Virus record (IMG/VR): IMGVR_UViG_3300035698_029580
From: a virus
Taxonomy: Duplodnaviria; Caudoviricetes
DNA length: 64,000 bases
Direction: 5' to 3' (one strand)
The notes under the pieces are model-generated. The model was not told the DNA's origin. It saw nothing but the letters and a program-made list of their open reading frames with translations, and did not search any database. Positions 3,396 through 51,316 of this stretch are shown in pieces (positions within the stretch are counted from its first letter, which is position 1; each line of letters opens with the position of its first letter). A program made the translations under genes and the position numbers.

Positions 3396-4934
3396 ATGAA
3401 TAATGGTAATTTTCCGAGAAATATTCCTGTCCAGATTGTCGATACTGTTCGTAATAATGATTTTCAGCAAAGTGCAGTTGAGTCTAAAGAAGTAGGAGTT
3501 CAAGCAGTTGAAATTGCTGAAAAAACAGCAATTAATAAATCTAATTATACTTTCGGAAAAGTATCGGAGGGTGTGCCAGTCGAATGTTATAAGGAAAAGG
3601 TTAGAGAAAATGAATTTACTCCCGTTCAAGATGACCATCTTTCGGGAATAAATTTTGGTAATGACATTAAAGTCCTGTGTATTCCAGTAATTGATTATAG
3701 GATTATGTGTTACTTTTTAGGTGCAACATCTGTTAATCAAGTAGAAAGTGTTCCCTATACAAACGTTCCTCTGATAACTCTTCTTTTAATGCAAACATTG
3801 CCTAATTTTATGAAAGAAAAAGGATATACTTATTCTGGTGAACTTAATTTTGACGACCAAGGTAATTTTATACCTTGTTCAAAAACTATATGGCTTGTTC
3901 GTGGAAAAGAAATTTGTTTTACAACTGTTGGTTTCTCGTATTTTAGCAGAGGAGATGACAAAGTTGTTTTCTTCAATTATTTTAATAAAGACAGAGCCGC
4001 AGCAGGTATAACTTGTTACACCAAAAACGGAAAGCATAGTAAACAAATTATTAAAGATTTAGAAGATTATACTTATGGAAGAAATTGTCTTAGAGGCATT
4101 AAAATAAGAGGGGTTAACATATATCGTGCTACCTTTGACGAAGTTATTCCTGATGAAAAATATACTTGGGACAATTACTATTATGATGATGATATTATTA
4201 ATCTTTTCGATCTTGAAGTTTTTGGTTTTCTGAAAAATTTGAAAGAATATAATGCTGTTGGAATACATAAAAGAGGGATCATAGCCTGGGGGACCCCGGG
4301 ATCTGGTAAGACCACGTTAGGACATATAATTTGTAATTTAGCAAAAGATTATACTGTGATGTGGATTACTCCTGATATGATAGGAATGGATTCTTCTCAA
4401 GGTGATTCTCTTATGGTTCTTTATAAATTGGCTGAATTTGTGGCTCCTTCAATAGTAATTTTAGAAGATTTAGACTTATATGGGGAAGATAGGTCTAGTA
4501 GTCATAATAATAGTAAATTAGGAGCACTGATGAACATAATGGACGGAGTTCATAGTGTAAAAGACTCTATTACCATTGGCACTACAAATAGACTTGGCTC
4601 CATAGAAAAAGCTCTTAGAAATAGACCTGGACGTTTTGATCGTATTGTAGAGATACCATCTTTGAAAGATGATTTGAGAAAAAGAATGATACGAGATAGA
4701 ACATTAGATTATAATATTACTAATTCTGTTATTGATGATATGGTAGAAAAGACGGATGATTGGACAGGAGCAGAAATTCAGGAATTTATCAATACTATAG
4801 GATTGCATTTCCTTAATAAAAAGACTAAAATAAGAAAAATTACAACTGTTGTTGTTGACAAAGTTTTGAGTACGATGAAAAAATTTGGGGTAGGAGAGAA
4901 AAGTGGAATGTTTGGCTTTAATAAAGAAATATAG
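3396..4934 (+). CDS. AAA+ ATPase
   Basis: Walker A GTPGSGKT, Walker B ILEDLD, TTN sensor, RPGRFDR second region of homology. Confidence 0.92.
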   Translation: MNNGNFPRNIPVQIVDTVRNNDFQQSAVESKEVGVQAVEIAEKTAINKSNYTFGKVSEGVPVECYKEKVRENEFTPVQDDHLSGINFGNDIKVLCIPVIDYRIMCYFLGATSVNQVESVPYTNVPLITLLLMQTLPNFMKEKGYTYSGELNFDDQGNFIPCSKTIWLVRGKEICFTTVGFSYFSRGDDKVVFFNYFNKDRAAAGITCYTKNGKHSKQIIKDLEDYTYGRNCLRGIKIRGVNIYRATFDEVIPDEKYTWDNYYYDDDIINLFDLEVFGFLKNLKEYNAVGIHKRGIIAWGTPGSGKTTLGHIICNLAKDYTVMWITPDMIGMDSSQGDSLMVLYKLAEFVAPSIVILEDLDLYGEDRSSSHNNSKLGALMNIMDGVHSVKDSITIGTTNRLGSIEKALRNRPGRFDRIVEIPSLKDDLRKRMIRDRTLDYNITNSVIDDMVEKTDDWTGAEIQEFINTIGLHFLNKKTKIRKITTVVVDKVLSTMKKFGVGEKSGMFGFNKEI

Positions 4935-5848: not shown

Positions 5849-6394
5849 TGAGATAAACAAAAATGTAGGCTAAAAATTATGTCTGTAGAAACTTGGATAA
5901 ATGAATTTTATCCTAAAAAGCCTAATACCAGGAGTCTCCTGATATTAGCAAAACGTTGTTTAAAAAAATGGGAAGGAATAAAAAAATTAAATCTAAAAAA
6001 ACATAAGATATATATTATAGGATTTGAATTATATTTTGAACATAAAAATAAAGATATGGAGCGTTTTGAATTAAATGGAAATAATTGTCCTTTTTGCAAA
6101 ATGGCTGAAGAAAAAATAGAAGAAATTATACAAAAAGATGAAAAAGCAAACATACCAGAATTACGTAAAAATATCTGTAATTATTGTCATATAAAGAAAG
6201 CCATTGGAAGAGGATGTGATACTTCAGTAAATGATTCTTTTTCTCCTTGGGCATCATTTTTTAATGATCATGATCCATTACCTATGATCGATTTAATAAA
6301 TGAATATATAAAGATTTTGAAAAATCCAAAGTTTGAGGTTTTGAAATAATATAATTTTTTTATGATAATGTAATAATAAATTGAAAAGAGTATT

Positions 6395-7525
6395 ATGGAA
6401 AATATTACAGATCTATTAACATCGGTTAGTCAAGTCCATCCGGGAAGAACTTTAGATTTTGACTATATTTATGATGGGTTGCAAAAGGAGGAGGAGAATG
6501 GTTATGTCTCTTCAAATTCTCATCCTAAATATCCTCTGAAAATATATAAGTACACTTCCTCTACCTCTGGAGAAAAAAGGTGGAATATCTTCACTCTTAT
6601 CTCCAGAGGTATTGTTTTAGATGTGCAAAATAAAAAAGTAGTAGCTACTCCTTTCCCTAAATTTTTTAATTTGCAAGAAATGCCCGTTCCCAAAACATGC
6701 ATAACTTTTATGGCCACAGAGAAAATAGACGGGTCATTGGGAATTGCATTTAATTATTCAGGAGAATGGATAATTACAACTGCAGGAGCTTTTGAGACTC
6801 CTCAAGGAATATGGGCAACAACTTATCTAAATAGAATTAATCATAATTTAAATCCTAATAATACTTATTTGTTCGAGATAGTTTATTCTGAGAATAAGAT
6901 AATTGTTAAATATGATCATGAAGGACTTTATATTTTATCAGCATATAACAAAAATGGAAAAGAAGCAAAATTATATGAAATAGAAAAAATATCTTTAGAA
7001 AATAATTTTTTCCTTCCTAAAATATTTTATTTTAATAGTATTTCTGATGCTGTGAAAAATGCTAAAGGACTGCCTGTTAATGAAGAAGGATATGTAATTC
7101 GATATTCCAACGGTGTTAGGGTTAAAATAAAAGGAGAACAATATGTTAGTATGCATAATCTTATTTCCAGAATTACTCCCTTAGGTATCTGGAAAATGAT
7201 ATATACTGGAACAGATATGGGTGAAGTGAGAAAAGAAATACCAGAAGAAATAAAAGATGAATTTGATCATATTAATGAAATTCTTGTTTCTAATTATAAC
7301 TATATGTTGATGGAACTGGAAAATCTCTTTCAAGAAACAGTAAGTTTGTCTAATAAAGAACTTGCTTTTTATATGAGAGACAATAAACTTCATCCTGTTA
7401 ATAAATTATTATTCCATTATAGAAAAATTGGTCATAATTTACCCCTATATGGTACAAAAGTTGACAAAGAAATACTTAAGATGATAAAACCCATTAATAA
7501 TTATCTGGAAAGGTTATACATCTAG
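6395..7525 (+). CDS. T4 Rnl1 (RnlA)-like RNA ligase
   Basis: SRGIV, PFPKFFN, motif I EKIDGS, FEIV, EEGYV, VKIK nucleotidyltransferase motifs. Confidence 0.9.
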   Translation: MENITDLLTSVSQVHPGRTLDFDYIYDGLQKEEENGYVSSNSHPKYPLKIYKYTSSTSGEKRWNIFTLISRGIVLDVQNKKVVATPFPKFFNLQEMPVPKTCITFMATEKIDGSLGIAFNYSGEWIITTAGAFETPQGIWATTYLNRINHNLNPNNTYLFEIVYSENKIIVKYDHEGLYILSAYNKNGKEAKLYEIEKISLENNFFLPKIFYFNSISDAVKNAKGLPVNEEGYVIRYSNGVRVKIKGEQYVSMHNLISRITPLGIWKMIYTGTDMGEVRKEIPEEIKDEFDHINEILVSNYNYMLMELENLFQETVSLSNKELAFYMRDNKLHPVNKLLFHYRKIGHNLPLYGTKVDKEILKMIKPINNYLERLYI

Positions 7526-7871
7526 ATTTAGGAGGAATGCACTTTGTCTCATTTAATTTTAGTACCACTAGACAAAAATAATATGGATATGGCTGGTCAT
7601 ATATTTCCTCTAAATGGATATATATTAGCTAAGGAATTCAGTCTGGATCACGATATTTCAAATGGTTTTTTTGGTTCTTTTCTTGGAAAAACTCCTATAA
7701 AAAGTTTAAAGGATATAGATAATGGAAAATGGACAGTAATAAAAATTGATGACTCTGAAAATTATATAAATATAAGTATTGTTGATAACTGGGTAAAATT
7801 TTCCAAAGGTAAGATTGTGCTTATGGATAATTTACAAACTTGTCTGGACTTTATAGAAGAAGAAAGAATTT

Positions 7872-8519
7872 ATGAAAATTGTATTTGTCAGTGATTTGCA
7901 TGGGAATTTGATAGGTAATATTCCACCTTGTGACATTCTTTGTATTTGTGGGGATTTAAGTAAACATTTTTACCATATAGGAGAAACATCTAATTGGTTT
8001 AATTTGAAAGTTAAAAAATGGCTTAACAATATTCCAGCAGAAGAAGTTTGTATTATAGCTGGTAATCATGATGAAATATTTTATAATAAAAATTTGCTTG
8101 ATACAGATTTTAGATGGCATTATTTAGAAGATAGTAGTATAGAAATTAATGGACTAAAAATCTATGGTACTCCATGGACATCAATATTTTTAAATTGGTT
8201 TTTTATGAAGTCAGAAGACAATTTAAAACAGGTTTTTGATGCTATCCCCGAAGATACAGACATTCTAATGACTCATGGTCCTCCCTTGGGAATACTAGAT
8301 CAACCAATAGGAAGAAATTTAAAACATATAGGTTCCCTGGGTTTAAAAGAAACTATATTACGAAAAAATATTCCTCATACTGCCTTTGGGCATATACATG
8401 GTAGCGGTGGTAGGACTCTTGAAATCTTAAATGATGAAAAATATTTAAATTTTTATAATTGTTCCATATTGAATGAAAGATATAAAATAGTGAATAAACC
8501 AATTGTAAAGGAATTATGA
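7872..8519 (+). CDS. calcineurin-like metallophosphoesterase
   Basis: SDLHG, CGD, AGNHD, THGPP, FGHIH motifs. Confidence 0.92.
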   Translation: MKIVFVSDLHGNLIGNIPPCDILCICGDLSKHFYHIGETSNWFNLKVKKWLNNIPAEEVCIIAGNHDEIFYNKNLLDTDFRWHYLEDSSIEINGLKIYGTPWTSIFLNWFFMKSEDNLKQVFDAIPEDTDILMTHGPPLGILDQPIGRNLKHIGSLGLKETILRKNIPHTAFGHIHGSGGRTLEILNDEKYLNFYNCSILNERYKIVNKPIVKEL

Positions 8520-16111: not shown

Positions 16112-17311
16112 ATGATAAGGACTATTGTAATGGAAAATGAAGAAAGCTTATTCGGTCCCCTGGGAGATAATGTTGAGAAATACTCAAATATTATTCCTCC
16201 GGAAGAATTAATTCCTGAAAAATCTGTAAATTATTCAGACGGAATTATGAGTTTGGATAACCATAGAGAAGTTGTGCCTATTGGCAGGACATCTACGGGA
16301 TTTGAGGAATTAGACTGGCTTTATGGTAGTTCTCCAGAAAAGGATTGTCCTAAATGGGGTATGCCCAATGGGAGGATATCTATTTGGGCAGGAGAGGGAG
16401 GAGTAGGAAAAACTCGTACATCTATCTCAATTTGCAAGGGATTGATATTAAAAGGTAAAAAAGTTTTATATTTTCAGAATGAAGTTGAATTATCATCTTT
16501 TATAAGTTGGGTAATAAAAAATGAAAATGACAAGAATTTGCCATTGGAAAGATTTATAATTTCTGATAGAATGTCGTTAGAAGGTCAGTTATCAGCTATA
16601 GAAGAATGTGATCCCGATATAGTAATAATTGATAGCATAAATAGGATTGTTGAATTTGGTAGTGGAGTTGGAAAAAATATTAAGTTAATTATTGATGGAA
16701 ATGGAGAGCAAAGAGGTTATAGGGATATATTAAAAGGAAGAGATACTCATGTTATTTTTATCAGTCATTTAAATGGAGAGGGAGAAATAAAGGGATCTAC
16801 GGACCTAAAACATCTGCCTGATGTGTTGTTTTATTTAAAAAATGCCGATAATAATAAATTTACTATACAAGTGAATAAAAATCGTTATGGTAGAAGTGAT
16901 AAAGAAAGCACTTGGGAAAAAGTTGAAGATGGAGTAGTCTGTCTTTCTAATAATAGATATGAAGAAGTTATTAAAGCATTAAAGAAAAATGGTGTATATG
17001 ACGATATATCTCAACATATTAATGAAGAAGAAGCAATTAGGGTTGCTGAAATTGAGAAAGAAGAAGAAATAAAGGTTAAAAAACTTAAGGATGAAAATTT
17101 TCGAAATTTTGTTGAAAAGTTAAATCTTACGGTATATGATAGAAAAAATTTATATAAAACTTTGGGATTTCCTTTCAATAAAAATCGTTATAAGGTAAAA
17201 AGACCCTGGACAAAAAAAGGACTTGAGGATATGTTTGAAGAATGGGATGCAGAAAATAGAAAATTATGTGAAGAATTTGGGGTTCCTAATTGGCATTCAT
17301 ATTCAAAATAA
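16112..17311 (+). CDS. RadA/Sms-like RecA-family ATPase
   Basis: STGFEELD, Walker A GEGGVGKT, IIDSI, KNRYG motif; no Zn finger or Lon domain evident. Confidence 0.8.
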   Translation: MIRTIVMENEESLFGPLGDNVEKYSNIIPPEELIPEKSVNYSDGIMSLDNHREVVPIGRTSTGFEELDWLYGSSPEKDCPKWGMPNGRISIWAGEGGVGKTRTSISICKGLILKGKKVLYFQNEVELSSFISWVIKNENDKNLPLERFIISDRMSLEGQLSAIEECDPDIVIIDSINRIVEFGSGVGKNIKLIIDGNGEQRGYRDILKGRDTHVIFISHLNGEGEIKGSTDLKHLPDVLFYLKNADNNKFTIQVNKNRYGRSDKESTWEKVEDGVVCLSNNRYEEVIKALKKNGVYDDISQHINEEEAIRVAEIEKEEEIKVKKLKDENFRNFVEKLNLTVYDRKNLYKTLGFPFNKNRYKVKRPWTKKGLEDMFEEWDAENRKLCEEFGVPNWHSYSK

Positions 17312-17370: not shown

Positions 17371-18702
17371 ATGAGAACAAACGTAAAAGCTAAGGATGGC
17401 AAGGAATTTGTAACTTATGAGGGTGGACGTGCAGTCAGAACCTCAGATGAGAAGTTATTGAGACGTACCTTAATGACTTGTTTTCTGGGTGAAAATACTT
17501 TTTATGAAGATGGAGAGTCTATTAAGGACAGAATTCGTGAACTGGTAGCAAAGGTTGATCCTATAGTTGTAGCATCAATGGCTATTGAAGCTCGTGAACA
17601 AATGAACTTACGTCATGCTCCACTATGGATAGTGAGGGAGATGGCTCGTAATAGATATCCTGGCACAGCAGATACTATTGAGAGAGTAATTCAACGAGCA
17701 GATGAATTAAGTGAATTATTGGCTATGTATTGGGAAGACGGTAAGTGTGCATTGTCTAAGCAACTAAAGCTAGGATTGGCTCGTGCATTTACTAAGTTTA
17801 ACGAGTATCAATTGGCTAAGTATAATAGGAATAACATCGTTAAATTACGAGATGTCTTATTTATGGTACACGCAAAGCCTAAGGACAAAGAACAGGCTGT
17901 TATTTGGAAAAGATTAGTAGATGGTAAATTAAAAACTCCTGATACTTGGGAAGTTGATTTATCTTTGGGAGAAGGTAAGACTACTGATGAAGATAAGAAG
18001 CTTAAGTGGGCAAGGTTGTTAAAAGAGAATAAATTAGGTGGATTAGCATTATTGCGTAATTTACGTAATATGAAAGACGCTGGTGTTAATGAAGATTTGG
18101 TATTTGCTGCATTAAATAACAGTAATTTCAGCAGAGTATTACCATTTAGATTTATTGCTGCGGAAAAATATGTTCCACATTGGTCTGGACAGTTAGAACA
18201 AGTTATGTTCAAAAGTTTAAAAGACGTTAAAAAACTATCAGGTAAAACAGCTGTTTTAGTTGATATAAGTGGTAGCATGAGTTGGTCTAATTTGTCTGAG
18301 AAATCTGATATGTTGAGAAAGGATGGAGCTATTGGATTAGCTATATGTGCTCGTGAACTGTGTGAAGATTGTCGTATATATGCTTTTCACACAGAGGTAT
18401 TTGATGTTCCTGCCCGACGAGGATTTGCCATAAGAGATGCAATTAATAAATTTGGAGCAGGTGGTACTTATTTAGGTGCAGCAGTCAAGCATGTTAATGA
18501 TACTTATGAATATGACCGTATTATTGTTGTAACTGATGAGCAGGCACACGATGTGGTTGGTCCTCCTTTGAAAGACAGTAATGCATATATGATTAACGTA
18601 GCATCGTATAAAAATAGTGTTGGTTATGGAAAATGGGCAAAGATCACAGGTTTTTCTGAATCTATTTTTAAGTACATAAGTGCTTACGAGGAGGAGATTT
18701 AG
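17371..18702 (+). CDS. Ro60/Rsr TROVE-domain RNA-binding protein with C-terminal vWA domain
   Basis: ENTFYE, NLRHAP, RADEL, FNEYQLAKY, PDTWE, ALLRNLRN, VLPFRF; MIDAS DISGSM; GGT; IIVVTDEQ. Confidence 0.93.
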   Translation: MRTNVKAKDGKEFVTYEGGRAVRTSDEKLLRRTLMTCFLGENTFYEDGESIKDRIRELVAKVDPIVVASMAIEAREQMNLRHAPLWIVREMARNRYPGTADTIERVIQRADELSELLAMYWEDGKCALSKQLKLGLARAFTKFNEYQLAKYNRNNIVKLRDVLFMVHAKPKDKEQAVIWKRLVDGKLKTPDTWEVDLSLGEGKTTDEDKKLKWARLLKENKLGGLALLRNLRNMKDAGVNEDLVFAALNNSNFSRVLPFRFIAAEKYVPHWSGQLEQVMFKSLKDVKKLSGKTAVLVDISGSMSWSNLSEKSDMLRKDGAIGLAICARELCEDCRIYAFHTEVFDVPARRGFAIRDAINKFGAGGTYLGAAVKHVNDTYEYDRIIVVTDEQAHDVVGPPLKDSNAYMINVASYKNSVGYGKWAKITGFSESIFKYISAYEEEI

Positions 18703-18711
18703 AGCAAAAAT

Positions 18712-18773
18712 AGGTGGTGAAGTCAAGGGTTACTTCTAAGTTTATGAAAAAACCCCTTGACAACTGTTCCCCT
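18712..18773 (+). ncRNA. Y-RNA-like repeat 1
   Basis: AGGTGGTGAA-GTCAAGGG-TTACTTC...GAA...CCCTTGAC-AACTGTTCCCCT; starts 10 nt after the TROVE stop codon. Confidence 0.75.
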
Positions 18774-18791
18774 TTTTTGTATAATTGGAAT

Positions 18792-18860
18792 TGGTGAGTG
18801 GTGAAGATAAGAGTTACTTCCATTTAAGAAACCATGCTTTTATCGTTTGTTCCCTTACTA
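18792..18860 (+). ncRNA. Y-RNA-like repeat 2
   Basis: GAGTGGTGAA-GATAAGAG-TTACTTC...CTTTTATC-GTTTGTTCCCTT. Confidence 0.75.
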
Positions 18861-18917
18861 TTTTAAGAAATATTTTCTACTATTTTATTTGTGGGAGCCG
18901 TAAAATAGTAAAAAAAT

Positions 18918-18981
18918 TAGGTGGTGAAAATAAGAGTTACTTCTTGCTATTGAAAATGAACTCTTATTGTTTGTTCCCCTA
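18918..18981 (+). ncRNA. Y-RNA-like repeat 3
   Basis: AATAAGAGTT/AACTCTTATT stem inside the conserved GTGGTGAA and TTGTTCCCCT ends. Confidence 0.75.
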
Positions 18982-19010
18982 TATTTTTATTTGAATAAAG
19001 GTTATTAAAA

Positions 19011-19418
19011 ATGAGTATAGATAATAGTTATGGAAAAGGATTTCAGAAATCAGTTATTGAACAGTTGGCTGAACAAAAGGCTCACCCTGAAAAAGTTGCA
19101 AAGTGTCCTTGTTGTAATCATTTTGTATCAGTACCTTCGTATCAATATGATTGTACACTTGTTGAGTATGCATGTGGAACAACGAAGAGTTACACAGGAG
19201 AAATTAAACAGAGTTCAACTTGTATAAAAAATGTTCGAAATAACGACGCTAAGGCTTTTCAAAAGAAAATAGATATTTTGAGTAGTGCAATGCCTACTAC
19301 TATAGGACATCCAGGAGGAAAGTTAGTTAAAGTTGTTGGTCATTATGAAAATGGATCAAAGCAGACTATTGATGGAGCAGTTGTCGAAAAGGCTTGTAAA
19401 GAGGTACATAAAAATTAG
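19011..19418 (+). CDS. hypothetical Cys-rich protein embedded in the Y-RNA-like array
   Basis: 135-aa ORF with AAGG RBS and CPCC motif. Confidence 0.6.
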   Translation: MSIDNSYGKGFQKSVIEQLAEQKAHPEKVAKCPCCNHFVSVPSYQYDCTLVEYACGTTKSYTGEIKQSSTCIKNVRNNDAKAFQKKIDILSSAMPTTIGHPGGKLVKVVGHYENGSKQTIDGAVVEKACKEVHKN

Positions 19419-19543
19419 GTGGTGTAGATAAAAGTTACTTCTACTTCAAATAGAGAAATTTTGGGTTCGAGTCCCAAAACCAATTAAGTTTGGTCTCGTC
19501 TAACGGTAGGACGCTAAAACAACTTTTGTCGATTGTTCCCCTA
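19416..19543 (+). ncRNA. YrlA-like RNA with permuted tRNA module (repeat 4)
   Basis: conserved ends enclose anticodon arm (loop CTTCAAA), T arm TTGGG-TTCGAGT-CCCAA, closed acceptor ACCAA/TTGGT and D arm GTCT-AACGGTA-GGAC. Confidence 0.85.
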
Positions 19544-19579
19544 TATTTTTAAAAAATAATGCATTGATACTGAGTTAGT

Positions 19580-19663
19580 TAAGAGTGGTGAAAATAAAAG
19601 ATACTTCATCAATGAACCTTGTTCGTTAGAAACAAGATCTCTTTTATTGATTGTTCCCTCTTA
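19580..19663 (+). ncRNA. Y-RNA-like repeat 5
   Basis: same conserved ends; insert hairpin CTTGTT-CGTTAGA-AACAAG. Confidence 0.75.
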
Positions 19664-19686
19664 TTTTTTAAAAATTTAGATTAAAA

Positions 19687-19815
19687 CATACAAAAGTGTA
19701 GGTGTGAAAAATCGCGGACACACTGGGTGCCTCTCACTGGTGGACTGGGCCAAGTGGCTGAAAAGTCGAAGAAAACCATCATCAGCCGGAGTAGCGACCG
19801 GCACACTTTTGTATG
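19687..19815 (+). ncRNA. unassigned structured RNA candidate
   Basis: 13-bp terminal stem CATACAAAAGTGT/ACACTTTTGTATG enclosing a GC-rich multi-stem core. Confidence 0.55.
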
Positions 19816-19882
19816 ATTTTGATAATTTTCCAGTAAAAAATAATTTAGTTATTACATAGTTCAAATTTAGAAAGGTATTAAA

Positions 19883-20494
19883 ATGAATGAGAAGACACAA
19901 ACAATTGATAATGAAGAAGTTATGAAATTATCAGTTATAAAAGAAGTAGAATATCTAATTAAAGAATTAGGTATGACTCATTGTGGTGTATATGATTTCG
20001 AGGACAAAGTTGATTGGACTGGCATTTCTTCTTCTAAAACCTTATCTGAAGATTTTATAAGAGAATTCAAAAATAAAGTCTCTTGGTATAATATTTCTCA
20101 ATATCAAACTTTATCGGAAGATTTTATTAGAGAATTTAAAGATAAAATTCATTGGTATTTGATTTCTCGATATCAAACTTTATCAGAAGAATTTATAAGA
20201 GAATTTAAAAATAAGGTTGATTGGAATTGTATTTCTCAAAATCAAGAATTATCCGAAGATTTTATAAGAGAATTTAAAGATAAAGTTATTTTGATAACTA
20301 TTTCTCAATATCAAAAATTATCTGAAGAATTTATTAGAGAATTTAAAAATAAAATTTGGTGGTCAGATATTATTCATTATAAAAAATTATCCGAAATATT
20401 TATGTATGAATTGCTAGAACAGTTAGGGTCTGATTTTATAGATGATGCAGGTTTCCGAGATCGTATTAAATCAGAGTTAAAAAATGTGGGATAA
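19883..20494 (+). CDS. Trp-repeat family protein
   Basis: five or six 24-aa repeats; tandem paralogue of 20542-21102. Confidence 0.85.
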   Translation: MNEKTQTIDNEEVMKLSVIKEVEYLIKELGMTHCGVYDFEDKVDWTGISSSKTLSEDFIREFKNKVSWYNISQYQTLSEDFIREFKDKIHWYLISRYQTLSEEFIREFKNKVDWNCISQNQELSEDFIREFKDKVILITISQYQKLSEEFIREFKNKIWWSDIIHYKKLSEIFMYELLEQLGSDFIDDAGFRDRIKSELKNVG

Positions 20495-21724: not shown

Positions 21725-21798
21725 AGAGAGTGGTGTAAATAAGAGTTACTTCAATAATTTGGTATCGAAAAAAGCTTTTATTGATTGTTCCCTCTTTT
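21725..21798 (+). ncRNA. Y-RNA-like repeat 6
   Basis: GAGTGGTGTA-AATAAGAG-TTACTTC...CTTTTATT-GATTGTTCCCTC. Confidence 0.75.
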
Positions 21799-22275: not shown

Positions 22276-22381
22276 TGTTCTGTAGTGTAAGCAGTTGGTT
22301 TTAACCATAGTGGCTATAAACCAAAGTGATAGTAGCACATCTTTCTAGAAGAAGATTTAGGTGCAAATCCTAACAGAACAG
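22276..22381 (+). tRNA. atypical tRNA-like gene, possible CUA anticodon, expanded D-loop
   Basis: acceptor TGTTCTG/CAGAACA, T arm TTAGG-TGCAAAT-CCTAA, D stem GTGT/GCAC with about 46-nt loop, short arm TCT-TTCTAGA-AGA. Confidence 0.55.
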
Positions 22382-50633: not shown

Positions 50634-50668
50634 CTCTAACGGAGTAGATGTAATAATGGAGAAAACTG

Positions 50669-51316
50669 ATGTACTTGGATGTGTGTTTCAAATTACAGGC
50701 TGATTTTATTGCACTAAATCATAATTATCAATTATGGGAGGCTCTTGCTGAAAAGTTTGCTTTTCTCAGATATGATGAAGGTAAAACAATTGGTATTGAC
50801 TCTATCAATGGAAAAGCAATAAAATCAGGGAATGGCAGTGGAAATGGAGTAGATACTTTGGAAATTACTTCTCGTTCTATCTTGAGAATAAGGACTCCTA
50901 TTCAACATGTTAATCCTTTTCTTGAAATGTGTGATACTCAATTCCAAATTGATGATGATTTGCTTGAGATTTATAATCCTCACGTATATCCACTTAATCC
51001 TTCCTGGGCACTATGGGGTCGTATGATAGCTTATAGAGGCATAATGGACCCAGAAGGTGTATTAGAGGCAGTGAGAATGGAACTAAATAATATGGGGATT
51101 TCTTCAGATGTTCAGTTGAAGATACCTACTTATGAAGATTCAGGTGCTCCTAAATTGAGCTTTCTGATGATACAAGATAAGAAGATAGTAGGTTTTCCCA
51201 TGTATATTTATGAATTAAATAATGAAGATTCTATGAAGGTTCAAACTCATGGAGTCGGTGATTTTCATCACTTAGGTTGCGGAATATTTTTGCCAGAAGT
51301 AAAAAAAATTAGTTAG
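50669..51316 (+). CDS. cas6: orphan Cas6 (type I-MYXAN/Cmx6-like)
   Basis: DVCF...NHNYQL, GIDSING, SILRIR, C-terminal Gly-rich loop GVGDFHHLGCGIFLP. Confidence 0.78.
   Translation: MYLDVCFKLQADFIALNHNYQLWEALAEKFAFLRYDEGKTIGIDSINGKAIKSGNGSGNGVDTLEITSRSILRIRTPIQHVNPFLEMCDTQFQIDDDLLEIYNPHVYPLNPSWALWGRMIAYRGIMDPEGVLEAVRMELNNMGISSDVQLKIPTYEDSGAPKLSFLMIQDKKIVGFPMYIYELNNEDSMKVQTHGVGDFHHLGCGIFLPEVKKIS

What the first reader, a model, noticed from the sequence alone, without database searches (positions are those of the whole stretch)
19416..19543. Complete circularly permuted tRNA with a UCA (opal-reading) anticodon loop inside Y-like repeat 4
Seen in order: anticodon arm TTCTA-CTTCAAA-TAGAG (19439-19455), 5-nt variable loop, T arm (19461-19477), acceptor ACCAA/TTGGT closed by a loop (19479-19494), then D arm GTCT-AACGGTA-GGAC (19498-19512). 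The break lies between tRNA positions 26 and 27. Known: YrlA RNAs mimic tRNA with T, acceptor and D arms in this permuted order, with the Ro-binding stem replacing the anticodon arm. This copy keeps a canonical-looking anticodon arm that is complementary to UGA. Inference: a full tRNA decoy, or less likely a precursor that could be religated into a UGA-reading tRNA.
Basis: partly seen in the sequence, partly recalled or inferred. Interest (0 to 1): 0.85.

Follow-up and report, generated by a model that had tools for sequence, protein, structure and literature searches.

The report
Phage Y RNA mimicking a whole tRNA
This 128-base gene is a Y RNA of a phage Ro60 protein whose upper half copies a complete tRNA in rearranged order, anticodon arm included. 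The UCA triplet is one of about 30 interchangeable triplets seen in relatives, so it gives no sign of stop-codon reading.

Summary
It lies 714 nt downstream of a TROVE/Ro60 gene and is one of six Y-RNA-like cassettes. It is a YrlA-type Y RNA, a known family.

The "anticodon arm" is the stem-loop that Chen et al. 2014 named "V" (variable arm). In 88 relatives the loop looks like an anticodon loop:
- the loop is 7 nt;
- U33 94%, purine-37 95%, A38 88%;
- a 4-5-nt linker follows, whose last base covaries with D-loop position 15.

I therefore read the hairpin as an anticodon-arm mimic, with the Ro-binding stem entering between positions 26 and 27.

The triplet is not conserved. There are 30 different triplets, UCA occurs only in the window, and the nearest relative has UAG. 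The triplet is the fastest-changing part of the RNA.

Nothing supports an opal-reading tRNA or its precursor. The window's acceptor hairpin has only 5 pairs and no free end. Sister RNAs at equivalent loci lack an anticodon loop or cap the arm with a tetraloop. I saw no sign of TGA recoding.

ARAGORN here, and GenBank for two cultured phages, mislabel such RNAs as tRNAs.

The parts
17371..18702 (+). Ro60 (TROVE + vWA) gene, the presumed protein partner of the Y RNAs
   Evidence: Pfam TROVE E=6e-15, with a weak vWA_Ro60 match. More than 8000 homologues, some named '60 kDa SS-A/Ro ribonucleoprotein' by their source.
16112..17311 (+). P-loop ATPase (CbiA/ParA-like) directly upstream of the Ro60 gene
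   Evidence: Weak Pfam CbiA/AAA_31 matches. A gene with the same weak CbiA match sits directly upstream of the TROVE gene in L001 and L002.
18711..18774 (+). Y-RNA-like cassette 1 (short, no tRNA module)
   Evidence: Covariance-model match, 34.8 bits. Shares GGTGGTGAAG, TACTTC and TGTTCCCC.
18757..18785 (+). Perfect sigma-70 consensus promoter (TTGACA-17-TATAAT) ending 9 nt before cassette 2
   Evidence: 12 of 12 matches. Inference: cassettes 2-5 and the 135-aa ORF may be one transcript from which the RNAs are cut.
18795..18857 (+). Y-RNA-like cassette 2 (short)
   Evidence: Model match, 34.3 bits.
18918..18981 (+). Y-RNA-like cassette 3 (short)
   Evidence: Model match, 44.5 bits.
19416..19543 (+). 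Cassette 4, the finding: a YrlA-type Y RNA with a complete permuted tRNA-like module
   Evidence: Model match at exactly these ends, 151.5 bits. Orthologue at L001:3216-3343.
19416..19422 (+). 5' strand of the Ro-type lower stem (UAGG-U-GG), followed by the UGUAG motif; pairs with 19538-19543
   Evidence: Pairs listed. Four of the six pairs show compensatory changes and 97.9% of cells pair across 80 relatives (helix 1).
19427..19436 (+). 5' strand of the 10-bp upper stem; pairs with 19521-19530
   Evidence: Eight of ten pairs covary (helix 2).
19435..19438 (+). UUAC, the conserved YUAY motif that Chen et al. place at the start of the 'V' region
   Evidence: Sequence. Motif described in PMC4201824. 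TACTTC is near-invariant in relatives.
19439..19455 (+). Anticodon-arm-like hairpin UUCUA-CUUCAAA-UAGAG (the 'V' stem-loop of the literature); triplet UCA at 19446-19448
   Evidence: In relatives: 7-nt loop in 88 of 91, U33 94%, R37 95%, A38 88%. The two inner pairs covary.
19456..19460 (+). 5-nt linker AAAUU, equivalent to a class I variable loop; the last U is the Levitt partner of A15
   Evidence: N15:N48 is A:U or G:C in 84 of 88 relatives.
19461..19477 (+). T arm UUGGG-UUCGAGU-CCCAA
   Evidence: 100% of cells paired; 4 of 5 pairs covary (helix 4).
19478..19495 (+). Closed acceptor hairpin: 5 pairs ACCAA/UUGGU, a flanking A-C mismatch and a 6-nt loop
   Evidence: All 5 pairs covary across relatives (helix 5). 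L001 has 7 pairs and a 4-nt loop.
19496..19512 (+). U8-C9 equivalents, then the D arm GUCU-AACGGUA-GGAC
   Evidence: 97.5% of cells paired; 3 of 4 pairs covary (helix 6).
19513..19520 (+). 8-nt single-stranded linker GCUAAAAC between the D stem and the 3' strand of the upper stem
   Evidence: Relatives have RCCUAA-type linkers of about 7-11 nt. Classical YrlA relatives have 1 nt here.
19582..19661 (+). Y-RNA-like cassette 5 (short, with its own apical hairpin)
   Evidence: Model match, 37.2 bits.
21727..21795 (+). Y-RNA-like cassette 6 (short)
   Evidence: Model match, 45.1 bits.
6380..7525 (+). T4 Rnl1-type RNA ligase gene (context, not part of the RNA)
   Evidence: Pfam RNA_lig_T4_1, E=1.6e-11.

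Best explanation
Cassette 4 is the YrlA-type Y RNA of a phage-encoded Ro60 ribonucleoprotein.

Shown:
- It lies on the same strand as a TROVE/Ro60 gene, 714 nt downstream of it.
- Its 5' and 3' ends form the conserved bulged stem (GG-U-GGUGNAG / UUGUUCC-CC) shared by all six cassettes.
- Its apical part is a covariation-supported tRNA-like module in the order anticodon-like arm, 5-nt variable loop, T arm, closed acceptor hairpin, D arm.

Inferred from the family's biology (Chen 2014; Wang 2018; Thermus phage phiLo work, PMC12135203):
- Ro60 binds the lower stem.
- The tRNA-shaped module is the effector end. It is very stable, is probably modified like a tRNA, and is used to engage a tRNA-binding partner or a nuclease such as PNPase.

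My own inference:
- The hairpin is a mimic of the anticodon arm rather than a variable arm. The Ro-binding stem leaves the tRNA body at the 26/27 junction.
- The RNA does not decode. The acceptor end is closed, and the UCA triplet is one state of a fast-changing position, not a conserved opal anticodon.
For: Locus and family:
- TROVE gene next door.
- Six cassettes with shared ends.
- Exact-end covariance-model matches in the window and in L001.
- Well over 100 full-length relatives lie beside TROVE genes in metagenomic, viral and Acidobacteriota loci.

Structure:
- 92.6% of cells pair against 75.1% in shuffles; covariation score 0.50 against 0.165, reached by 0 of 500 shuffles.
- RNAalifold finds the same arms de novo.

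Family hallmarks described in PMC4201824 are present: the YUAY motif (UUAC), T/AS/D order, and the Levitt pair A15:U48 covarying with G15:C48 in 84 of 88 relatives.

Anticodon-arm reading:
- 88 of 91 relatives have a 7-nt loop.
- Y32 90%, U33 94%, R37 95%, A38 88%. Real tRNAs of the same loci give 93, 87, 99 and 66%.
- The linker to the T stem is 4-5 nt, as in class I tRNAs.
- G36 goes with G37 in 26 of 30 and U36 with A37 in 41 of 41 (Fisher p = 2e-13, not corrected for relatedness).
- In about 30 sister RNAs the five bases at the same distance from the T arm pair in trans with the five bases after D stem + 1 nt. This is the classical YrlA anticodon stem. The hairpin's 3' strand therefore sits at positions 39-43.
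- The D stem is joined to the closing stem by 8 nt here, against 1 nt in those sisters.
- tRNA finders read the hairpin as an anticodon arm: the ARAGORN SeC call here, GenBank 'tRNA-Gln' in CcrColossus and 'tRNA-Thr' in Xanthomonas phage 10KY502B.

Non-decoding:
- UCA is unique to the window. L001 has UAG. There are 30 triplets in 88 RNAs.
- The window's acceptor hairpin has only 5 pairs.
- In five clear D-loop-split relatives the arm's loop is 4-7 nt, and two are capped by GNRA tetraloops.
Against: - No experiment here shows Ro60 binding, expression or the fold.
- No Rfam family other than a sub-threshold tRNA match hit the region, so family membership rests on my own model and on features read from papers.
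- The 5' motif is GGUGUAG, not the published GNCGAA(N)G.
- The three outer pairs of the hairpin use the near-invariant UUC of the TACTTC motif. That motif is also conserved in cassettes without any tRNA module. These pairs do not covary and may be constrained for another reason.
- RNAalifold predicts only the two inner pairs.
- Which helix stacks on the D stem cannot be decided from sequence.
Confidence: 0.8

Rival explanations
1. Published topology: the hairpin is only a variable-arm equivalent ('V'), and the closing stem plays the anticodon stem, as in Salmonella YrlA. The RNA then has no anticodon-arm mimic, and the loop's resemblance is incidental.
For: - Chen et al. 2014 orient YrlA so that V corresponds to the variable arm and YUAY begins it.
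- The hairpin's outer pairs do not covary.
- An extra helix at 26/27 and a long variable arm would leave the tRNA core at nearly the same place.
Against: - Bacterial class II variable arms have short loops and 1-2 nt before the T stem (textbook knowledge, not tested here). Here the loop is 7 nt in 88 of 91 relatives, carries U33/R37/A38 frequencies like real anticodon loops, and is followed by 4-5 nt.
- The closing stem is 8 nt away from the D stem rather than 1 nt.
- Sister RNAs that do use a trans anticodon stem place its 3' strand exactly where the hairpin's 3' strand lies.
Confidence: 0.14
2. Permuted pre-tRNA: the Y stem is excised, positions 26 and 27 are ligated (for example by the phage Rnl1-type ligase), and the acceptor loop is opened by RNase P with CCA addition. 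The product would be a UCA tRNA that reads UGA.
For: - All tRNA parts are present in permuted order.
- Mycobacterium smegmatis YrlA is cut by RNase P and receives CCA in vivo (PMC4201824).
- Wang et al. raise the possibility of further processing.
- An Rnl1-type ligase gene lies 12 kb upstream.
Against: - The triplet is not conserved even in the 81%-identical locus (UAG, with an unusual C37).
- The window's acceptor has 5 pairs, and 7 pairs is a major RNase P determinant according to the same paper.
- Both strands of the Ro-type stem are conserved and covary, as expected for a functional part and not for an intron.
- No bulge-helix-bulge splicing system is known in bacteria or phages (stated).
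- Genes in the window read well under table 11, and the longest ORF does not grow under table 4.
- The tRNA array holds tRNA-Trp(CCA) and no opal suppressor.
Confidence: 0.03
3. Ordinary-order tRNA gene (ARAGORN: tRNA-SeC, 19413-19486), with the Y 5' strand serving as acceptor and D arm.
For: ARAGORN call. Rfam tRNA model 22 bits, E=0.1 over 19418-19485. Similar calls are deposited as tRNA-Gln and tRNA-Thr in two phage records.
Against: - The score is below the tRNA gathering score of 29 bits. The alignment has 4 non-standard acceptor positions and essentially no D arm.
- ARAGORN makes no such call in L001.
- In relatives the bases after the T arm covary with the following bases (the acceptor hairpin), not with the 5' end.
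Confidence: 0.01

Closest known systems
[quoted passage not shown] 2014, PMC4201824; structure of the Salmonella module, Wang et al. 2018, bioRxiv 10.1101/312249, PDB 6cu1)
   Same: - Encoded near a Ro60/TROVE gene on the same strand.
- The ends form the Ro-type stem.
- YUAY motif.
- T arm, closed acceptor-like hairpin and D arm in that order.
- Levitt-pair covariation.
- An optional stem-loop upstream of the T arm.
- Several Y RNAs per locus.
   Different: - In Salmonella YrlA the anticodon stem is made in trans by the 5' and 3' parts, and there is no anticodon loop.
- Here, and in about 90 relatives, a cis hairpin with anticodon-loop features is present and the closing stem is 8 nt from the D stem.
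- The 5' motif is GGUG(A/U)AG rather than GNCGAA(N)G.
- The literature calls the hairpin a variable arm. I read it as an anticodon-arm mimic.
Y RNAs of Caulobacter phage CcrColossus and Xanthomonas phage 10KY502B (TROVE proteins 47-49% identical)
   Same: Same architecture, including the hairpin: CcrColossus UUCGC-AUCUGGA-GCGGG and UUCGA-CUGUUAA-UCGAG; Xanthomonas phage UUCGA-CUUGUAA-UCGAG. CcrColossus is cited as having Y-like RNAs (PMC12135203).
   Different: - They lie upstream of the TROVE gene instead of downstream.
- They are GC-rich.
- Their triplets differ (CUG, GUU, UGU).
- In GenBank their 5' halves are annotated as tRNA-Gln and tRNA-Thr.
Circularly permuted tRNA genes of Cyanidioschyzon merolae and other algae (Soma et al. 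2007, as cited)
   Same: The 3' half lies before the 5' half, the acceptor ends are joined by a short loop, and the 5'/3' ends of the transcript pair.
   Different: Those are true pre-tRNAs, matured through a circular intermediate by the eukaryotic/archaeal splicing machinery, and their anticodons are conserved. Here the joining stem is a conserved protein-binding module and the triplet is not conserved.
tRNA-Sec / opal-suppressor anticodon loop
   Same: The loop CUUCAAA equals C32-U33-UCA-A37-A38. From memory, not from a tool, this is the loop of E. coli tRNA-Sec.
   Different: No long acceptor/T helix, no long variable arm, no free 3' end. The match follows trivially from the family's CU-NNN-AA frame plus UCA.

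Membership tests
YrlA-type Y RNA | Encoded within about 4 kb of a Ro60/TROVE gene, on the same strand | tested here: met
   TROVE gene at 17371-18702 (+). The RNA starts 714 nt downstream on the + strand.
YrlA-type Y RNA | 5' motif GNCGAA(N0-1)G, thought to contact Ro60 | tested here: inconclusive
   The window has GGUGUAG, the other cassettes GGUGAAG, and relatives GGCGAAG/GGCGUAG/GGUGAAG. It is a near variant at the same place, not the exact motif.
YrlA-type Y RNA | Nearly invariant T and D stem-loops with tRNA-like conserved bases, and an acceptor-like stem-loop between them | tested here: met
   T loop UUCGAGU, D loop AACGGUA, U8 equivalent present. Helices 4-6 are 97.5-100% paired with compensatory changes.
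YrlA-type Y RNA | Conserved YUAY at the start of the V region, with an optional V stem-loop upstream of T | tested here: met
   UUAC at 19435-19438 followed by the hairpin 19439-19455.
YrlA-type Y RNA | Levitt pair 15:48 kept by compensatory change | tested here: met
   A15:U48 in the window. A:U in 30 and G:C in 54 of 88 relatives.
YrlA-type Y RNA | Bound by Ro60/Rsr in vivo; carries tRNA modifications (Psi55, D) | not testable with these tools
   Needs co-immunoprecipitation and modification mapping.
Genuine tRNA gene (including tRNA-Sec or a suppressor) | Acceptor stem formed by the 5' and 3' ends with a free 3' end; score above the tRNA model threshold | tested here: not met
   22 bits against a gathering score of 29, with mismatched acceptor positions. 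The bases after the T arm pair with the following bases instead.
Genuine tRNA gene (including tRNA-Sec or a suppressor) | Anticodon conserved among orthologues | tested here: not met
   UCA in the window, UAG in L001, 30 triplets in 88 relatives.
Circularly permuted pre-tRNA (algal/archaeal type) | Processing junction in a bulge-helix-bulge motif cut by the tRNA splicing endonuclease, followed by circularisation | not tested
   I ran no bulge-helix-bulge search. The closing stem is instead the conserved Ro-type stem. [quoted passage not shown]
Circularly permuted pre-tRNA (algal/archaeal type) | Mature product is a functional tRNA needed for decoding | tested here: inconclusive
   No sign of TGA recoding in the 64-kb window and no need for a UCA tRNA. 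The rest of the genome was not available.

The most novel reading that the evidence does not exclude
The hairpin's triplet is read by something and is under pressure to change. Among relatives 90-95% identical elsewhere, it differs at 0.48 per site. The whole RNA differs at 0.08 per site, and other unpaired segments at 0.17-0.19. The loop frame (Y32, U33, R37, A38) and a tRNA-like 36/37 coupling stay fixed. One locus can carry two such RNAs with different triplets.

That pattern would fit a 'programmable' anticodon mimic. Each Ro60-Y RNP would imitate, or pair with, one particular tRNA species. It might act as a decoy or sensor for anticodon-directed nucleases, or as a guide that captures a tRNA by anticodon-anticodon pairing for repair or decay. 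This phage also carries an Rnl1-type RNA ligase and 26 tRNA genes. In the window the mimic would be set to UCA (tRNA-Sec-like or opal).
Probability: 0.2. Interest if true: 0.8.

Novelty: new variant of a known kind. Interest (0 to 1): 0.5.

Why it matters
How the tRNA-like end of bacterial and phage Y RNAs is used remains an open question in the Ro60 field. The papers I could read describe YrlA as lacking an anticodon loop and call the extra stem-loop a variable arm.

In a large, easily sampled subfamily (phages, Acidobacteriota) that stem-loop has the length, frame and linker of an anticodon arm. Its triplet is also the fastest-changing part of the RNA. This gives a concrete handle: swap the triplet and look for the partner, or test cleavage by anticodon nucleases.

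There is also a practical point. tRNA finders and at least two GenBank phage records label these Y RNAs as tRNA genes, including a false 'tRNA-SeC' here. That can mislead inferences about suppressor tRNAs and stop-codon recoding in phages.

Tried and rejected
Searches that led nowhere:
- Rfam at gathering and at E<=10 found no Y-RNA family match, only tRNA at 22 bits.
- A DNA search of the 'phages' collection with 17371-19900 found no match.
- An IMG/VR scan with the TROVE protein and one with an exact T-arm/acceptor word found nothing.
- No whole genome is held for the window, so TGA use outside the 64 kb could not be checked.
- The Annual Review on bacterial Ro60 (PMC10870794) is not held, and the supplements of Chen 2014 are not held. 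I could not see how their alignments draw the V arm.
- L003/L004 (TROVE 59% identical): the downstream Y RNA looks interrupted by a possible transposase-like ORF (not checked) near the contig end, so it was not usable.

Readings rejected:
- The ARAGORN tRNA-SeC call, because of covariation and the sub-threshold score.
- A stop-anticodon enrichment. One of 88 triplets is stop-complementary, against about 3-4 expected from base frequencies.

Corrections to my own parser:
- The first parser bucket, 'D-loop-split', held 36 RNAs. Only 5 passed the explicit split-D-stem test, so I claim only those.
- On trimmed sequences ARAGORN called only 7 of 88 as tRNA. On whole loci, 32 calls overlapped Y RNA hits.

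Full report
**What is there.** The window is AT-rich (30% GC), with nearly all long ORFs on the + strand. It carries 26 ordinary tRNA genes between 22 and 39 kb. Other genes include an Rnl1-type RNA ligase, a metallophosphoesterase, a sigma factor, a PARP-like protein and Cas6. This looks like part of a very large phage.

The ORF at 17371-18702 is a TROVE/Ro60 protein. Thousands of relatives exist, several of them named Ro ribonucleoprotein by their source.

Downstream lie six cassettes sharing a 5' block GGTGGTG(A/T)AG, an internal TACTTC and a 3' block TGTTCCCC. Cassette 4 is the finding, at 19416-19543.

**Checking the observation.** All arms are present at the stated positions, and all 35 proposed pairs are standard. 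The single-sequence fold recovers the T, acceptor and D hairpins and the closing stem. It is only modestly better than shuffles (z = -2.0).

The comparative evidence is strong:
- The closest relative is L001, with a TROVE protein 81% identical. Its acceptor hairpin changes completely in sequence but still pairs. Its lower stem changes UAGG/CCUA to AGAG/CUCU.
- A model built from these two sequences found full-length matches next to TROVE genes in 80 metagenomic loci, in IMG/VR viral contigs and in GTDB genomes, mostly Acidobacteriota.
- On 80 aligned relatives, 92.6% of cells pair against 75.1% in shuffles. The covariation score is 0.50 against 0.165, reached by 0 of 500 shuffles. Sliding the partners by one to three columns drops pairing to 39-50%.
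- RNAalifold recovers the same architecture without my input.

**What it is.** The locus and the RNA match the published description of YrlA Y RNAs (PMC4201824):
- a position near a Ro60 gene on the same strand;
- a 5' Ro-type motif, here a near variant;
- a YUAY motif (UUAC, 19435-19438);
- T, acceptor-like and D stem-loops in that order;
- a 15:48 pair kept by compensatory change (A:U in 30 and G:C in 54 of 88 relatives).

The object therefore belongs to a known family and is not a unique copy.

**Variable arm or anticodon arm.** I sorted 211 distinct full-length relatives with a simple parser.

About 30 are classical. One base after the D stem, five bases pair in trans with the five bases lying 4-5 nt before the T stem. 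The Y stem continues from there. This is the Salmonella arrangement, in which the crystal structure shows the anticodon stem made of nt 15-27 and 83-93.

About 90, including the window, are different:
- The five bases at that same distance from the T stem pair in cis with bases just after the YUAY motif. The hairpin's 3' strand therefore sits at positions 39-43.
- The loop is 7 nt in 88 of 91.
- Loop position 2 is U in 94%, position 1 is C/U in 90%, position 6 is a purine in 95% and position 7 is A in 88%. The three middle positions have near-maximal entropy.
- The 149 real tRNAs of the same loci give 87, 93, 99 and 66% for the same positions.
- G36 is followed by G37 in 26 of 30, and U36 by A37 in 41 of 41.
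- The D stem is joined to the closing stem by 7-11 nt (8 in the window) instead of 1.

Five further relatives are split in the D loop instead. Their arm has a loop of 4-7 nt, and in two of them it is a GNRA tetraloop.

I conclude that the Ro-binding stem enters the tRNA body at different points in different family members. In the window's class it enters at 26/27, leaving a cis anticodon-arm mimic.

This is an inference from sequence, with three caveats:
- The three outer pairs of the hairpin use the near-invariant UUC of TACTTC and do not covary. Only the two inner pairs do.
- That motif is also conserved in cassettes without any tRNA module.
- A structure is needed to say which helix stacks on the D stem.

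**The UCA triplet.** UCA occurs only in the window. L001 has UUUAGCA (triplet UAG). The 88 relatives show 30 different triplets, nearly all sense anticodons. One stop-complementary triplet in 88 is no more than chance.

The triplet is the fastest-changing part of the RNA. In pairs 90-95% identical elsewhere it differs at 0.48 per site. The rest of the RNA differs at 0.077 per site. Two other unpaired, poorly conserved segments differ at 0.17-0.19. Three loci, and CcrColossus, carry two such RNAs with different triplets.

These counts are not corrected for phylogeny.

**Decoding is unlikely:**
- The acceptor end is closed, and in the window the hairpin has only 5 pairs. According to Chen et al., the 7-bp stem of the M. 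smegmatis RNA is why only that RNA is cut by RNase P.
- Both strands of the Ro-type stem are conserved and covary.
- Sister RNAs at equivalent loci have no anticodon loop at all.
- The window's genes read well under table 11, and the longest ORF does not grow under table 4.
- The tRNA array has Trp(CCA) and no opal suppressor.
- Notes from other windows of the same genome describe normal head-module ORFs. I did not check these myself.
- The ARAGORN tRNA-SeC call at 19413-19486 is a mis-call. It scores 22 bits against the threshold of 29, has mismatched acceptor positions and no D arm, and is absent in L001.

The same mistake is deposited in GenBank. 'tRNA-Gln' of CcrColossus and 'tRNA-Thr' of Xanthomonas phage 10KY502B are the 5' halves of such Y RNAs.

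**How it most likely works.** Established for the family: Y RNAs bind Ro60 through the stem formed by their ends and use the other end to engage an effector. The effector is PNPase in Deinococcus, Salmonella and Thermus phage phiLo.

Inferred here: the phage makes its own Ro60 plus six Y RNAs. The RNAs are probably cut from longer transcripts. A perfect sigma-70 promoter ends 9 nt before cassette 2, and cassette 4 starts inside the stop codon of a 135-aa ORF. Cassette 4 supplies a complete, non-chargeable tRNA look-alike. What reads it is unknown.

The speculative but testable reading is that the triplet specifies which tRNA is imitated or captured. The phage's RNA ligase and large tRNA set make tRNA damage and repair a natural setting.

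**Novelty and score.** The RNA is a new member of the YrlA family. The 26/27 topology with a cis anticodon-arm mimic, the fast-changing triplet and the coexistence of at least three permutation points are not described in the papers I could read. Chen 2014 calls the hairpin V, and Wang 2018 states that YrlA "lacks the anticodon loop". I could not see their supplementary alignments or the 2020 review.

I rate it a new variant of a known kind, with interest 0.5. It is not low, because the family-wide pattern is unexpected and experimentally tractable.

Noticed in passing
window 19687-19815 (+); L001:3367-3496: A GC-rich structured RNA candidate of about 129 nt lies right after cassette 5 and lacks the Y-type ends. 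It is conserved in L001, with 37 predicted pairs of which 6 keep pairing through changes on both sides. It has no Rfam match at E<=10.
   Followed up: partly
L285:1664-1731 (CcrColossus) and L286:1831-1898 (Xanthomonas phage 10KY502B): GenBank features 'tRNA-Gln' and 'tRNA-Thr' are the 5' halves of YrlA-type Y RNAs upstream of the TROVE gene. ARAGORN made 32 such calls over Y RNA hits in the fetched loci.
   Followed up: yes
L285:1640-2450 (CcrColossus): Five different Y RNAs lie in a row upstream of the TROVE gene. Two have a cis anticodon-like arm (triplets CUG and GUU). One appears modelled on a class II tRNA, with a real long variable arm and a trans anticodon stem.
   Followed up: partly
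L052:3281-3409, L016:3297-3421, L070:1632-1757, L283:3297-3423, L065:1490-1614: In these relatives the Ro-type stem enters the tRNA body in the D loop. The D stem is made in trans, and the anticodon-like arm has a loop of 4-7 nt (GNRA tetraloops GAGA and GCAA in two of them).
   Followed up: partly
window 6380-7525 and 7857-8519 (+): An Rnl1-type RNA ligase and a calcineurin-like phosphoesterase lie close together. They may form a tRNA healing-and-sealing pair like T4 Rnl1/Pnkp.
   Followed up: no
window 50657-51316 (+) and 40329-41639 (+): A Cas6 family gene (Pfam E=1.7e-40) and a PARP catalytic-domain gene (E=2.5e-28) occur in a phage-like region.
   Followed up: no
window 22276-22381 (+); L001 about 4345-4450: A tRNA-like sequence with a TTCTAGA loop and a long insert in the D-loop region lies between tRNA-Gln and tRNA-Asn. 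It is conserved in L001 and is not called by ARAGORN or the Rfam tRNA model.
   Followed up: no
L003:3774-3844 (-) and L004:987-1057 (-): ARAGORN calls a CUA-anticodon tRNA ('tRNA-Pyl') on the opposite strand just upstream of a related TROVE gene (59% identical) on a 177-kb contig. It could be an amber suppressor.
   Followed up: no
window 19011-19418 (+): A 135-aa ORF with no Pfam match sits between cassettes 3 and 4, and its stop codon overlaps the first bases of cassette 4. It is absent from the same place in L001.
   Followed up: partly
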